Positions 43,023 to 45,581 of a stretch of DNA of 64,000 nt are shown in pieces. The notes under the pieces are model-generated. The model searched no databases, had not been told where the DNA came from, and saw nothing but the letters and a program-made list of their open reading frames with translations. This stretch comes from a virus: the UHGV virus genome UHGV-1483955. One strand, given 5' to 3'. The stretch's first letter is position 1. The number at the start of each line of letters is the position of its first letter. Made by a program: the position numbers and the translations under genes.

Positions 43023-43685
43023 ATGCTCGCCTGGAGGCTGAATTTGCAGCTGAGAATGAACATACCACCCAGGGCGACTAGGACTGTTTTTTGTGTCGGT
43101 AGCGGTCCGTCACTCACTCGTGAGGACTGTGCTGCTATAGAAAAAACTGGCTGTTCAATCATCGCGGTTAACAATTCCTGGCAGATGTTCGATGACATTT
43201 ATGCCTTATACGCCGGTGATTTGTCATGGTGGAAGCAATACGGATCCACCATACCGGGAGGGAGATTCCGCAAAGTGACAGCCAACCTGGCGGCGGCGAA
43301 ATCATTTTCGTTGGAGTACAGGCGATATTGTGGACCGGCGGAAGGGGTAAATAGCGGCGCGCAGGCTATCAGTCTGGCTGCTGAATCAGGGGCTGAAGTA
43401 GTGGTATTAGTCGGCTATGACTGTTCTCTGCAAAACGGCCTTCATTGGCATGGCGCGCACCCTCAAGCACTACGGAATCCAACGCAGGTGTCTATTTCAA
43501 AATGGCAACAGCAGTTCCTGGATACCCGCAAAAAACACGCAGATTTACATATTTTGAATGCAAGTAGGAGCAGTGCAATTCAATGTTTCCCAAGAATAAA
43601 TTTAGAGGCAGTGATCGCGTTATTATCGTCGGCAGTGGCCCAAGCGCCGCAAACTTTGTTGCGCCGCGCGGAGTGCCGATTATAG
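43023..43685 (+). CDS. MptE/MAF-like (DUF115-type) protein, paralogue 1; likely start ATG ~43055
   Basis: VFCVGSGPSLTREDCAAIEKTGCSIIAVNNSW...YAGD, family hallmark GxGPS ... AVN ... D. Confidence 0.45.
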   Translation: MLAWRLNLQLRMNIPPRATRTVFCVGSGPSLTREDCAAIEKTGCSIIAVNNSWQMFDDIYALYAGDLSWWKQYGSTIPGGRFRKVTANLAAAKSFSLEYRRYCGPAEGVNSGAQAISLAAESGAEVVVLVGYDCSLQNGLHWHGAHPQALRNPTQVSISKWQQQFLDTRKKHADLHILNASRSSAIQCFPRINLEAVIALLSSAVAQAPQTLLRRAECRL

Positions 43686-44209
43686 CGGTCAATGGGGCCA
43701 TCGACTGGCTTAACCGCGCTTCTTATTTTTTCACCCTTGATCCATCCCCAGACAATATGCGGCGCGTTGGTCGTGGCCGCCGTCGCCGTGGTGTTTGTTA
43801 TTGCATGGCACTACCCGATGTTAAAGAACGTGAAGTCAGAGATGGCGTTCTGTGCTTCCGTCGTGTGGCTGAACGCGGCATGGAGCCAAAAAATACGAAT
43901 TCTCCCGAGTGGTGGGCGTGGCGCTGGTCCGCACATTTCGGCCTTTGCGAAGATGAGAATGAAATTGCCAGCGGCAATAGTGCATATGGTGCTCTGAACC
44001 TGGCTTTCCATATCGGATTCAAACATGTAGCTCTGGTGGGCGTTGACGCTACGCAAGAACTACGCGTTCACTCCGGCGGCACGCCAAAAAATCTAAGTCA
44101 CCTGCCTTTGTTATTCCAGTCTGCGCGTGAACAGATTGACGTTGTTTCATGCGGGAAAATGGGAGGTATTCCGCAGATGACTCTTAAAGAATGGCTGAAG
44201 AATACATGA
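43583..44209 (+). CDS. MptE/MAF-like (DUF115-type) protein, paralogue 2
   Basis: [30 protein letters not shown]...FTLD; overlaps paralogue 1 by ~100 nt. Confidence 0.45.
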
Positions 44210-44883
44210 TGGCACCCACAATTTATCACCGTATCGACGGTACCAAATACAGGAATGTCTGGGTTGTTGGTGATCTGCATGGTTGCTACACCAGACTGAT
44301 GTCCGAACTCCATCGTGTGGATTTTGACCCGGCGCAGGATTTACTGATATCGGTCGGCGACCTTATCGATCGCGGTACTGAAAATGTCGAATGTCTGGAA
44401 CTATTGCAGATGCCCTGGTTCAGGGCAGTGATGGGGAACCATGAGCGGCTGATGATTGATGCGTTAAGTCCAGATGGCAACGTGAATAACTGGCTAATGA
44501 ATGGCGGACAATGGTTCTTCATGCTGGACACTGATCAGGAAATATTAGCCTGGGCGCTGGTGGAGCTGGTAAAGCGTCTGCCCTATATCATTGAGTTGAA
44601 CACGGGGCAAGAAACTATCGTTATAGCCCATGCCGACTATCCGGATAATGAATACCAATTCGGTAAGGAGGTGCCGCTTTTCAACGTTGTCTGGGCGCGC
44701 GAGCGTATCAGTGATTCGATGGATGATATTGGTGGCGAAATTTCGGGCGCAGATCGTTTTATCTTTGGTCACACTCCGGTGAAAAGCCCGAAGACATTCT
44801 GGAATCAGCAGTATATCGACACTGGTGCCGTATTTTGCGGAAACCTGACATTGATGAAAGTGAAAGGTGATGGTGCAGCATGA
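44191..44883 (+). CDS. ppp: Ser/Thr protein phosphatase (lambda PPase / calcineurin-like)
   Basis: Metallophosphatase motifs GDLHG, GDLIDRG, GNHE. Confidence 0.75.
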
Positions 44884-45581
44884 AGATTGCTTTAGTTTTT
44901 CGCTCTGGTGGTGACTATAACGCTTCCGATGTGCAGTGGCTGGTTAATCAACTGCCAAAAGGCTATGAAATTATTTGCCTGACAGACCTGAAGCGTTTAC
45001 ATGTACCTGGCGTCAAAGTTGTCCCATTGATCAACCAGTGGCAAAAGTGCCGTGGCTGGTGGGCGAAAATCGAGTTGTTCCGACCGGATATAACCGATGA
45101 TCTGTTCTATCTGGATTTGGACACGGTTATTGCCGGTGATATACGCCCAATCCTAGAGCATCCACCAACCAGCTTCACCATGCTTAGGGATTTTTACCAT
45201 CCACAATATCGTGGCAGCGGTGCCCTGTGGATACCAAATAGTGTTAAAGCGCATATCTGGAGTTCATTCTGGCAAGATCCGGAAGGTTGGATTTCTCGTT
45301 GTGTCACTACTGAGTGCTGGGGTGACCAGGGGTTCTTACGAAAGGTTATGGGCGATGATACACCAGCATTTCAGGATCTGTATCCAGGATGGTTTGTAAG
45401 TTACAAGGCCGATGTTGTGGAACCTGGTTCAAAATATGCGAGCGCGCGTTACTCCAGGGGGAATGGGGCATTACCAAAAGACTGCCGAATAATCTTTTTC
45501 CACGGCAAACCGCGACCTCGCGAAGTGTCAGAGGATTGGCTTCCCCTTATCAGCTCATTTTTTGAGCGAGAATCAGAATAA
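44880..45581 (+). CDS. possible GT-A-fold nucleotide-sugar transferase
   Basis: Hydrophobic stretch followed by DLD (FYLDLDTVI), reminiscent of DxD glycosyltransferases; weak. Confidence 0.3.

What the first reader, a model, noticed from the sequence alone, without database searches (positions are those of the whole stretch)
43023..45581. Operon of two MptE/MAF-like paralogues, a Ser/Thr phosphatase and a possible GT-A transferase
Two overlapping genes share the GxGPS...AVN...D hallmark of the MptE / motility-accessory-factor family (pterin pyrophosphokinase-like or glycan-transferase-like enzymes). They are followed with overlapping stops/starts by a lambda-type protein phosphatase and a protein with a DxD-like motif. 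Together this looks like a small modification pathway whose substrate (protein, nucleotide or glycan) is unknown.
Basis: partly seen in the sequence, partly recalled or inferred. Interest (0 to 1): 0.5.

Follow-up and report, generated by a model that had tools for sequence, protein, structure and literature searches.

The report
Phage P1 pmgO-pmgP-ppp-pmgQ glycosylation cassette
These are four known but uncharacterised genes of phage P1; three of them form a conserved enzyme trio, found in many phages and next to some bacterial adhesin genes, that most likely attaches sugars to proteins, and the phosphatase is a later P1-lineage insertion.

Summary
The window is a P1-like phage. The four ORFs are P1 pmgO, pmgP, ppp and pmgQ.

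- **Ppp** is a close relative of lambda phosphatase.
- **PmgQ** is a GT8-like DxD glycosyltransferase.

New here: PmgO-, PmgP- and PmgQ-like genes co-occur in about 22 independent loci from several bacterial phyla. They are found fused in several combinations. They usually carry sugar-type methyltransferases, a sulfotransferase or extra glycosyltransferases.

In phages the trio often sits in late or head-gene blocks. In some Enterobacterales it flanks an inverse-autotransporter adhesin. ppp is absent everywhere outside part of the P1 lineage, including P1-like phage JK004.

Best reading (inferred, no chemistry): a late-expressed protein O-glycosylation cassette, probably acting on a virion protein, possibly with CMP-Kdo as donor. 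Published single deletions give no plating defect. The genes and their rough annotations are already known; the module-level picture appears undescribed.

The parts
41926..41944 (+). Late promoter LPpmgL (-22 box and -10), upstream of pmgL. It would drive late transcription through the operon.
   Evidence: Position transferred from the P1 annotation. 1 mismatch in 19 against P1. Not tested functionally here.
42827..42853 (+). Predicted sigma-70 promoter PpmgN.
   Evidence: P1 annotation. 3 mismatches in 27 against P1. Not recovered by the simple consensus scan.
42866..42882 (-). C1 repressor operator Oppp (formerly Op83). The unit would be repressed in the lysogen.
   Evidence: P1 annotation. 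1 mismatch in 17.
42926..43081 (+). pmgN, a small ORF (51 aa) that overlaps the annotated start of pmgO. Function unknown.
   Evidence: P1 annotation; identical to P1. No significant Pfam hit. Present only in P1-like loci.
43023..43685 (+). pmgO: Maf/MptE-fold (PF01973-like) protein, first of the paralogous pair. The true start is probably the ATG at 43056 (M12).
   Evidence: Invariant residues: G28 P29 S30 L31, N50, D66, S111 G112, G131 Y132 D133, H141, H143. Homologues and the PHROG profile begin at about aa 12-25.
43583..44209 (+). pmgP: second Maf/MptE-fold paralogue. It overlaps pmgO by 103 nt.
   Evidence: Conserved residues: G19 P20 S21 (nearly invariant) and the invariant N37 G38, D53, N132 S133, D155, H173.
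44191..44883 (+). ppp: lambda-type Ser/Thr (PPP-family) metallophosphatase. Lineage-specific occupant of the slot between pmgP and pmgQ. Likely start 44206, in an ATGA overlap with the pmgP stop.
   Evidence: PF00149 at 59.3 bits; 1g5b at E 1.5e-94; start context; distribution.
44880..45581 (+). pmgQ: GT8-like retaining-type GT-A glycosyltransferase (DLD motif at 79-81, H208). ATGA overlap with ppp.
45583..45648 (.). C1 operators OpmgRa (45583-45599, +) and OpmgRb (45632-45648, -), and predicted promoter PpmgR (45584-45612).
   Evidence: P1 annotation; identical to P1.
45663..45881 (+). [quoted passage not shown]
   Evidence: phenotype from PMC9024508.
45883..47145 (+). pmgS, a coiled-coil protein and last gene of the unit. 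Non-essential.
47165..47193 (+). Intrinsic-terminator-like hairpin (11-bp stem followed by a T run) ending the unit after pmgS.

Best explanation
PmgO, PmgP and PmgQ form a three-enzyme, cytoplasmic protein-glycosylation cassette expressed during lytic growth.

Proposed mechanism (all steps inferred, none chemically shown):
- PmgO and PmgP are minimal, single-domain relatives of the Maf / GT42 class. All characterised members of that class use CMP-activated ulosonic acids.
- They probably work as a pair, transferring such a sugar onto Ser/Thr of an acceptor protein. In E. coli K-12 the only CMP-ulosonic acid known to me is CMP-Kdo.
- PmgQ, a GT8-like metal-dependent transferase, adds or extends with a hexose from a UDP-sugar.
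- In relatives the glycan is then tailored by methyltransferases, a sulfotransferase or extra glycosyltransferases.
- In phages the likeliest acceptor is a virion protein, head-associated in the siphophages. In some Enterobacterales it is an inverse-autotransporter adhesin or neighbouring Big_1 proteins.

Ppp is a lambda-type protein phosphatase inserted into the accessory slot of the cassette in part of the P1 lineage. It is co-translated with the cassette but is probably functionally independent.
For: Shown by computation:
- Paralogy of PmgO and PmgP.
- Maf, MptE and Cst-I are the best fold matches for both proteins.
- PmgQ matches GT8 enzymes that glycosylate proteins: AgtA 6mw5 at E 1.7e-6, the GT8 entry 5gvv at 0.004, and glycogenin.
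- The trio co-occurs in about 22 loci: Enterobacterales, Pseudomonas, Alloalcanivorax, Gilvimarinus, Zhongshania, Brevundimonas, Commensalibacter, Sinomicrobium, and jumbo Xanthomonas phage XacN1.
- Fusions occur as PmgO::PmgP, PmgP::PmgQ, PmgQ::PmgP, PmgQ::PmgP::methyltransferase and methyltransferase::PmgP.
- Accessory genes inside the module are SAM, FkbM and TylF methyltransferases, a sulfotransferase, a GT1-type and a GT-A-type transferase.
- In HK97-like phages the module sits between the capsid or connector genes and the head-closure genes. In lambdoid phages it sits between the lysis genes and terS.
- In P1 it lies next to the head-completion gene pmgR, under a late promoter and a C1 operator.
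- In L090-L094 the PmgO-like gene lies about 60 nt downstream of a 1166-aa IAT_beta/Big_1 adhesin gene, with the PmgP- and PmgQ-like genes just upstream. The L098 contig begins with an inverse-autotransporter fragment, followed by the module.

From the literature:
- Maf enzymes expressed in E. coli O-glycosylate Ser/Thr using CMP-Kdo (PMC11339370).
- The module-bearing phage XacN1 has at least two virion glycoproteins (PMC5852040).
- Mycobacteriophages glycosylate capsid and tail-tube proteins with their own transferases (PMC12363180).
Against: - There is no chemical evidence for any step.
- The two window proteins score below Pfam's PF01973 cut-off.
- Single deletions and CRISPRi knock-downs of pmgO, pmgP, pmgQ and ppp give no plating or antirestriction defect.
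- A text search of the P1 cryo-EM paper found no mention of glycans or extra density.
- In three large phages or phage-like loci the module lies next to nucleotide-metabolism genes rather than head genes (L102, L107, L108).
- No acceptor protein was identified. No conserved non-enzymatic neighbour was found.
- The CMP-Kdo donor is a guess from host range and family precedent.
Confidence: 0.5

Rival explanations
1. The cassette modifies the host envelope rather than a protein. PmgO/PmgP would act like the LPS inner-core Kdo transferase WaaZ. PmgQ would act like the GT8 outer-core transferases WaaO or WaaJ. This would alter the LPS core, which is the P1 receptor, during lytic growth, to limit superinfection or loss of progeny on debris.
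For: - A precomputed 'faint' PF27901 WaaZ_KDO_III hit on the PmgO::PmgP fusion P0051.
- hhalign places the WaaZ segment 'AIQIAYSLKYARIICSGLDL' on the conserved NSG...GxD region.
- GT8 is also the family of WaaO and WaaJ.
- All named hosts are LPS-bearing Gram-negative bacteria.
Against: - The WaaZ similarity is not significant (hhalign probability 14-17%). The Pfam scan run here did not reproduce the PF27901 hit.
- The A3 profile against WaaO gave probability 6%.
- The module is repressed by C1 in the lysogen and sits in late or head operons. That is too late to replace LPS already in the outer membrane.
- The best PDB matches of PmgQ are enzymes that glycosylate proteins.
- Placement beside adhesin genes fits a protein substrate better.
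Confidence: 0.15
2. The cassette glycosylates phage DNA (base hypermodification) as an anti-restriction measure.
For: - Phage GT-A enzymes structurally close to GT8 (WaaJ/WaaO) are reported to glycosylate 5hmC in DNA, often with second transferases and methyltransferases nearby (bioRxiv 10.1101/2023.12.21.572611).
- In L102, L107 and L108 the module lies beside ribonucleotide reductase or DNA ligase/polymerase genes.
Against: - No thymidylate-synthase-like or 5-methylpyrimidine-dioxygenase gene was seen next to the module in any locus examined.
- The P1 deletions cause no change in antirestriction activity.
- The bacterial copies sit in adhesin clusters.
- From my own knowledge, not tested here: P1 DNA is routinely cut and cloned, and no Maf-fold enzyme is known to act on DNA.
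Confidence: 0.07
3. PmgO/PmgP are ATP-dependent pyrophosphokinases, like MptE or thiamine pyrophosphokinase. They would activate a small molecule or a hydroxyl group, and Ppp (and Pap) would act as pathway phosphatases.
For: - PF01973 is named after MptE.
- In P1 two phosphatases (ppp, pap) lie in or after the unit.
Against: - Maf is the better and longer fold match (165 and 159 aligned residues against 130 and 135).
- The obligate partner is a GT8-like transferase, sometimes fused to PmgP.
- The accessory genes are sugar-tailoring enzymes.
- ppp is missing from nearly all loci.
- No pterin or thiamine genes are nearby.
Confidence: 0.08
4. Ppp is a functional part of the P1 version of the pathway, a tailoring or regulatory step, rather than an independent passenger.
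For: - ppp occupies exactly the slot between the PmgP and PmgQ genes where other lineages carry a methyltransferase, sulfotransferase or extra transferase.
- It has ATGA overlaps on both sides.
- It is kept at that position in a Pantoea P1-like element, where it has diverged about as much as its neighbours (59% against 72% and 68% identity).
Against: - Over residues 11-229 it aligns with the whole of lambda phosphatase at E 1.5e-94. The P1 record gives 64% identity. The PHROG family is named NinI-like, and from my own knowledge lambda's copy sits in an unrelated gene block.
- It is absent from colinear JK004.
- It is present alone in D6 among nin-like genes.
Confidence: 0.2

Closest known systems
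Maf (motility accessory factor) flagellin glycosyltransferases, PF01973; structure 5mu5
   Same: - Same N-terminal GxGPS motif, AVN motif and NSG...GxD motifs.
- Cytoplasmic enzymes.
- Occurrence as paralogous sets, and a need for partner proteins in some systems.
- Documented ability to use CMP-Kdo in E. coli.
   Different: - PmgO and PmgP are about 190-220 aa, single-domain proteins. The matched Maf chain 5mu5 is 632 residues, and S. oneidensis Maf-1 uses a C-terminal TPR domain to bind flagellin.
- There are no flagellar genes nearby.
- The proteins always occur as a PmgO-type plus PmgP-type pair with a GT8-like enzyme.
- Donor and acceptor are unknown.
GT42 sialyltransferases Cst-I / Cst-II of Campylobacter jejuni (2p56, 1ro7)
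   Same: - Weak profile match at the GPSL and (T/N)SG...G(I/Y)D motifs.
- This match is probably the source of the PHROG and RefSeq name 'alpha-2,3-sialyltransferase'.
   Different: - The sequence match is not significant (E about 0.2).
- E. coli K-12 makes no CMP-sialic acid (my own knowledge).
- The acceptor of Cst enzymes is lipo-oligosaccharide.
- The database name is a fold-level label, not a tested function.
GT8 enzymes acting on proteins: AgtA (6mw5), the GT8 entry 5gvv, glycogenin
   Same: - The PmgQ family profile matches them (E 1.7e-6, 0.004, 0.02).
- DxD and the downstream His-Gly-x-Pro-x-Pro segment align with their metal-binding motifs.
   Different: - No Pfam Glyco_transf_8 hit.
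- PmgQ is only 233 aa.
- No structure prediction was made for it here.
- Sugar and acceptor are unknown.
Mycobacteriophage virion glycosylation (Che8, Corndog, Myrna)
   Same: - Phage-encoded transferases that glycosylate capsid and tail-tube proteins (PMC12363180).
- The function is likewise not expected to be needed for plaque formation in the laboratory.
   Different: - The enzyme set differs: here a Maf-fold pair plus a GT8-like enzyme.
- The hosts are Gram-negative.
- Glycosylation is not demonstrated for P1.
Cytoplasmic glycosylation of autotransporter adhesins (Aah/AIDA-I, TibC/TibA, HMW1C/HMW1)
   Same: Transferase genes adjacent to, or co-transcribed with, a large surface adhesin gene, as in L090-L094. 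The named systems are recalled from my own knowledge.
   Different: - Unrelated enzyme folds and donors (heptosyl- or N-glucosyl-transferases).
- Here the adhesin is an inverse autotransporter with Big_1 repeats.
Bacteriophage lambda Ser/Thr protein phosphatase (1g5b)
   Same: Ppp residues 11-229 align with the whole of lambda phosphatase at E 1.5e-94. The GDLHG, GDLIDRG and GNHE metal-binding motifs are present.
   Different: The gene lies inside a glycosyltransferase operon in P1, not in a nin-type block.

Membership tests
PF01973 (MptE-like / DUF115, includes Maf) | Score at or above Pfam's gathering cut-off (34.6 bits). | tested here: not met
   PmgO scores 23.4 bits and PmgP 20.9 bits. 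The family is nevertheless hit by 33 of 34 and 42 of 42 homologues. The fusion P0051 passes at 44.6 bits.
PF01973 (MptE-like / DUF115, includes Maf) | Rossmann-like fold shared by Maf, MptE, GT42 enzymes and thiamine pyrophosphokinases. | tested here: met
   [not shown]
PF01973 (MptE-like / DUF115, includes Maf) | Nucleotide-binding motifs: N-terminal GxGPS, AVN, and (N/T)S(G/A)...GxD. | tested here: met
   These residues are invariant or nearly invariant in both families. They align with the corresponding Cst-II motifs.
Maf flagellin glycosyltransferases | Multi-domain architecture with acceptor-binding N- or C-terminal domains, and a flagellar gene context. | tested here: not met
   PmgO and PmgP are 220 and 208 aa, single-domain proteins. 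No flagellar genes occur in any locus examined.
Maf flagellin glycosyltransferases | Transfer of a CMP-activated ulosonic acid to Ser/Thr of a protein. | not testable with these tools
   Needs enzymology or glycoproteomics. Precedent for CMP-Kdo use by Maf enzymes: PMC11339370.
MptE 6-hydroxymethylpterin pyrophosphokinase | Role and gene context in pterin (folate or methanopterin) synthesis. | tested here: not met
   Neighbours are glycosyltransferases, methyltransferases and a sulfotransferase, within phage structural or lysis blocks or adhesin clusters. No pterin genes were seen.
GT42 sialyltransferases (Cst-I/II) | Significant sequence similarity, and a catalytic His in the lid region after the GxD strand. 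| tested here: inconclusive
   Profile E about 0.2-0.6. Invariant His residues follow the GxD motif (PmgO H141 and H143; PmgP H173) in a low-confidence loop. No structural superposition of active sites was possible.
GT8 glycosyltransferases | GT-A enzyme with a DxD motif and a downstream His as metal ligands; similarity to known GT8 members. | tested here: met
   The A3 profile matches 6mw5 at E 1.7e-6, 5gvv at 0.004 and glycogenin at 0.02. D79, D81, H208, G209, P211 and P213 are invariant. Caveats: there is no Pfam hit for the single sequence, and the fold was not modelled.
PPP-family (lambda-type) Ser/Thr protein phosphatases | Metallophos domain above the cut-off, GDxHG / GDxxDRG / GNHE motifs, close similarity to lambda phosphatase. 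| tested here: met
   PF00149 at 59.3 bits against a 21.5-bit cut-off; 1g5b at E 1.5e-94; motifs visible in the translation. It scores below the NCBIfam equivalog cut-offs for PrpA/PrpB (272 against 326 bits).
Phage virion-glycosylation cassettes | Transferase genes embedded in the late or structural gene block. | tested here: met
   Relatives: L005, L096, L105, the ERZ1426824 contig and the JGI 3300075153 contig (between capsid or connector genes and head-closure genes); L104 and L106 (between lysis genes and terminase). P1: late promoter upstream and the head-completion gene pmgR downstream.
Phage virion-glycosylation cassettes | Glycan demonstrably attached to virion proteins and dependent on the cassette. 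| not testable with these tools
   Only indirect evidence: XacN1 virions contain at least two glycoproteins, but that phage has other transferases too. No glycan is mentioned in the P1 cryo-EM paper.

The most novel reading that the evidence does not exclude
The PmgO/PmgP/PmgQ trio is a widespread, previously unrecognised protein O-glycosylation system of Gram-negative phages and some enterobacterial adhesin loci. A heterodimer of two minimal Maf-like enzymes would attach Kdo from the universal LPS precursor CMP-Kdo to Ser/Thr of virion or adhesin proteins. This would be the first natural protein 'Kdo-ylation'. A GT8-like enzyme would then extend the glycan and methyl or sulfate groups would cap it. 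That would mean even phage P1 carries a glycan coat that has gone unnoticed.
Probability: 0.17. Interest if true: 0.8.

Novelty: new variant of a known kind. Interest (0 to 1): 0.55.

Why it matters
P1 is one of the most used phages in genetics. These four genes have been labelled 'putative morphogenetic function' since the P1 genome annotation, with no phenotype found.

The comparative evidence here turns them into a concrete hypothesis that existing strains can test. It proposes a compact, portable protein-glycosylation cassette, shared by many Gram-negative phages from P1 to lambdoid prophages and jumbo phages, and by bacterial adhesin loci.

If virion glycosylation is confirmed, it would extend a phenomenon so far shown for mycobacteriophages to Gram-negative phages. 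That is relevant to antibody recognition and clearance in phage therapy. It would also supply small Maf-type enzymes for glyco-engineering in E. coli.

If it is not confirmed, the finding remains an ordinary set of accessory phage genes.

Tried and rejected
- Single-sequence searches of PmgO, PmgP and PmgQ against PDB sequences gave only chance-level hits. Profiles were needed, and the PmgP profile still found nothing.
- NCBIfam has no model for PmgO, PmgP or PmgQ. PADLOC has no hit for any of the proteins, so a known defence system is unlikely.
- The viral-contig scan with the PmgP alignment returned only near-identical P1-like contigs and gave no diversity. The genome-contig scan and encoding-contig look-ups supplied the diverse loci instead.
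- The WaaZ link: the 'faint' precomputed PF27901 hit was not reproduced by the Pfam scan. hhalign against E. coli WaaZ gave only 14-17% probability. It is kept as a lead, not as evidence. WaaO against the PmgQ profile was likewise not significant.
- The afdb50 fold library was unavailable. The BFVD search returned only uncharacterised MptE-like phage proteins.
- The search for a conserved acceptor next to the module found only weak or heterogeneous hits: a PhiKZ gp35-like decoration hint below threshold, a tail terminator, and a weak PKD domain.
- Literature: no paper found assigns a function to pmgO, pmgP or pmgQ. The P1 genome paper (tried as PMC523184) and Freeman et al. 2023 (PMC10527164) were not in the library.
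- The pterin-pyrophosphokinase reading was rejected on gene context. 'Sialyltransferase' is rejected as a literal function because, to my knowledge, E. coli K-12 has no CMP-sialic acid.
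Full report
**1. What is in the window**

The window is a P1-like phage. Bases 42000-47000 are 100% identical to Escherichia phage vB_EcoM-Ro157c2YLVW and 99.2% identical to P1.

The finding's four ORFs are the P1 genes below:

| Gene | Coordinates | Length |
|---|---|---|
| pmgO | 43023-43685 | 220 aa |
| pmgP | 43583-44209 | 208 aa |
| ppp | 44191-44883 | 230 aa |
| pmgQ | 44880-45581 | 233 aa |

- pmgO and pmgP are identical in DNA to P1. ppp and pmgQ differ from P1 at 7 bases each.
- The overlaps are real: 103 nt between pmgO and pmgP, and an ATGA overlap between ppp and pmgQ.
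- ppp probably starts at 44206, also in an ATGA overlap with the pmgP stop. The alignment to lambda phosphatase begins at residue 11.
- pmgO probably starts at M12 (43056). Homologues and the PHROG profile begin at about residues 12-25.

**2. Transcription unit (transferred from the P1 annotation)**

The following P1 elements are conserved in the window:
- the late promoter LPpmgL (41926-41944);
- a predicted sigma-70 promoter PpmgN (42827-42853);
- the C1 operator Oppp (42866-42882);
- two C1 operators after pmgQ (45583-45648).

A strong terminator-like hairpin follows pmgS at 47165-47193. The genes should therefore be repressed in the lysogen and expressed in lytic growth. This is inferred from annotation and was not tested here.

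**3. The proteins**

*PmgO and PmgP*
- As single sequences they hit PF01973 only below Pfam's cut-off: 23.4 and 20.9 bits against 34.6.
- The hit recurs in 33 of 34 PmgO-like and 42 of 42 PmgP-like homologues.
- A natural PmgO::PmgP fusion passes the cut-off at 44.6 bits.
- The two family profiles align with hhalign probability 98.1% and E 1.2e-13.
  - SteA, thiamine pyrophosphokinases and GT29 sialyltransferases.
- Both families keep the GxGPS, AVN and (N)S(G/A)...GxD motifs. Both have invariant histidines after the GxD strand: H141 and H143 in PmgO, H173 in PmgP.

*Ppp*
- Ppp residues 11-229 align with the whole of lambda phosphatase: PF00149 at 59.3 bits, 1g5b at E 1.5e-94.

*PmgQ*
- It has no Pfam hit.
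- Its family profile matches GT8 structures: AgtA 6mw5 at E 1.7e-6, 5gvv at 0.004, glycogenin at 0.02.
- The invariant D79-x-D81 and the H208-G-x-P-x-P segment align with the GT8 metal-binding motifs.

**4. What is already known**

- RefSeq and PHROGs already label PmgO 'alpha-2,3-sialyltransferase' and PmgQ 'glycosyltransferase'.
- In-frame deletions of pmgO, pmgP, pmgQ and ppp exist. They are among the mutants with no plaque or antirestriction defect.
- CRISPRi scored all four genes as non-essential.
- I found no paper that assigns a function to them.

**5. Comparative evidence (the main new result)**

*Co-occurrence*

PmgO-like, PmgP-like and PmgQ-like genes occur together in about 22 loci examined:
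- P1-like elements;
- Cronobacter phage JK004;
- the lambdoid Citrobacter phage phiNP;
- E. coli myophage IME392;
- jumbo Xanthomonas phage XacN1;
- prophages or contigs of Pseudomonas, Alloalcanivorax, Gilvimarinus, Zhongshania, Brevundimonas, Commensalibacter and Sinomicrobium;
- chromosomal loci of Serratia and Pseudescherichia.

Four further loci show the PmgP- and PmgQ-like genes without a detectable PmgO-like gene (L098-L100, L103). Two contigs were too short to judge.

The PmgP family is small: 589 clusters at E <= 0.001 among 1.84 billion representatives.

*Fusions*

Natural fusions link all the parts:
- PmgO::PmgP (P0051);
- PmgP::PmgQ (P0221, P0288);
- PmgQ::PmgP (P0307);
- PmgQ::PmgP::methyltransferase-like domain (P0271; the last domain judged by eye);
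- methyltransferase-like domain::PmgP (P0308; likewise by eye).

*Accessory genes inside the module*

| Accessory gene | Loci |
|---|---|
| SAM methyltransferases | L096, L101, L104, JGI contig |
| FkbM-type methyltransferase | L102 |
| TylF-type O-methyltransferase fused to the PmgQ homologue | XacN1 (L108) |
| Sulfotransferase | L105 |
| GT1-type transferase | L107 |
| Fourth GT-A-like protein (weak PF03407) | L004, L005, L095, L097, L098 |

This is the make-up of a glycan-building and tailoring pathway, not of a pterin or thiamine kinase pathway.

**6. Where the module sits**

- In five HK97-like siphophages it lies inside the head block, between the capsid or connector genes and the head-closure gene: L005, L096, L105, the ERZ1426824 contig and the JGI 3300075153 contig.
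- In L101 it follows a tail-terminator gene.
- In lambdoid phiNP and L104 it lies between the lysis genes and the small terminase gene, that is, in the late operon.
- In L102, IME392 and XacN1 it lies near nucleotide-metabolism genes.

*A non-phage context*
- In five Pseudescherichia/Enterobacteriaceae genomes, the PmgO-like gene lies about 60 nt downstream of a 1166-aa inverse autotransporter (IAT_beta plus seven Big_1 repeats).
- The PmgP- and PmgQ-like genes lie just upstream, among other Big_1 proteins.
- An Erwinia contig begins with an inverse-autotransporter fragment followed by the module.
- The Serratia locus has Big_1 genes beside a PmgO-like gene.

The common denominator of virions and adhesins is an exported or released, surface-exposed protein assembly. 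This favours a protein acceptor.

**7. The phosphatase**

- ppp lies between pmgP and pmgQ only in P1-type loci, including a Pantoea element at 59% identity.
- It is absent from the otherwise colinear P1-like phage JK004, where pmgP and pmgQ are 40 nt apart.
- It is absent from all other loci, and it occurs alone in phage D6 among nin-like genes.
- It is therefore a lineage-specific insertion into the slot where other lineages carry tailoring genes.
- Whether it contributes to the pathway is open. I rate that at about 0.2.

**8. Mechanism proposed (inferred)**

- PmgO and PmgP act together. The evidence is translational coupling, constant co-occurrence and the fusion.
- They would act as Maf-type transferases of a CMP-activated ulosonic acid.
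- E. coli K-12 supplies only CMP-Kdo (my own knowledge). Maf enzymes are documented to use CMP-Kdo to O-glycosylate Ser/Thr when expressed in E. coli. CMP-Kdo is therefore the most economical donor guess.
- All named hosts are Gram-negative, which fits this guess.
- PmgQ would add a hexose.
- Other Maf systems also need partner proteins for acceptor choice. That fits minimal enzymes lacking acceptor-binding domains.
- Phage XacN1, which carries the module, has at least two virion glycoproteins, although it has other transferases too.
- Virion glycosylation by phage enzymes is established in mycobacteriophages.

**9. Evidence against and limits**

- No chemistry supports any step.
- Fold alone cannot exclude a pyrophosphokinase.
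- The P1 deletions show no laboratory phenotype.
- A text search of the P1 cryo-EM paper found no mention of glycans.
- No acceptor was identified.
- The WaaZ (LPS Kdo III) lead is not significant.
- GT8-like enzymes can also glycosylate DNA.
- I rate the LPS, DNA and pyrophosphokinase rivals at about 0.15, 0.07 and 0.08.

**10. Verdict**

- The genes and their rough annotations are already public. The finding as written is not new.
- The module-level picture appears undescribed in the literature I could search. That picture is an obligate trio with fusions and tailoring enzymes, found in phage head or late operons and beside inverse-autotransporter adhesins, with ppp as an insertion.
- It gives a hypothesis that existing P1 mutants can test directly.
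- I file it as a new variant of a known kind (phage or adhesin protein glycosylation), with moderate interest.

Noticed in passing
window 42926-43081 (pmgN): pmgN was scored essential by CRISPRi but non-essential by deletion (PMC10695390). It is the first gene after the C1-controlled promoter. A roadblock there could be polar on the essential pmgR. However, knock-downs of pmgO to pmgQ, which lie between the two, were scored non-essential.
   Followed up: no
window 43023-43056 and 44191-44206: The annotated starts of pmgO and ppp are probably too far upstream. Homologues and the PHROG profile of PmgO begin near M12 or later. The lambda phosphatase alignment and an ATGA overlap point to a ppp start at 44206.
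   Followed up: partly
window 42281-42859 (pmgM) and 42033-42278 (pmgL): PmgM has a sub-threshold VRR-NUC nuclease hit (21.2 bits against 23.8). PmgL has a weak treble-clef zinc-ribbon hint. Both are confined to P1-like loci and are not part of the conserved trio.
   Followed up: partly
window 47218-47724 (pap): Pap is a HAD phosphatase of the polynucleotide kinase-phosphatase type (PF25109, 46 bits). It is a second phosphatase just after the unit's terminator.
   Followed up: no
window 47919-49529: There are two ORFs (242 aa with no Pfam hit; 292 aa with a PAPS-reductase domain, PF01507 at 37.7 bits). P1 annotates pmgT, pmgU and pmgV with different boundaries here. This region may differ from P1 or be mis-annotated.
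   Followed up: no
window 10001-12000: There is a marked G+C dip (0.366 against about 0.47-0.50 elsewhere), suggesting foreign or accessory DNA.
   Followed up: no
L003 (Serratia plymuthica CP180221.1), about 4000-18000: The chromosomal copy of the module sits with a holin, a phage-type lysozyme, a lipase, a lipoxygenase, two Big_1 proteins and two PmgO-like genes. This may be a lysis-protein-dependent secretion locus for glycosylated proteins.
   Followed up: no
L090-L094, about 2200-15400: This is a cluster of Big_1-repeat proteins: a 1166-aa inverse autotransporter, an 845-aa RCC1/Big_1 protein, and others of 330, 494 and 690 aa. It surrounds the three transferase genes in five Enterobacteriaceae genomes.
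   Followed up: partly
P0329, P0346, P0359 (about 400 aa): These PmgP-like proteins are fused to a second, divergent domain that by eye also looks MptE-like. It is matched only marginally, or not at all, by the PmgO and PmgP profiles, so it may be a third paralogue type.
   Followed up: no
L108 (XacN1 ORF371-375): In XacN1 the module (ORF375-373) is followed on the same strand by two very large ORFs. ORF372 is 1088 aa with a weak PKD/Ig-like hit. These are candidate acceptors for the virion glycoproteins reported for this phage.
   Followed up: no
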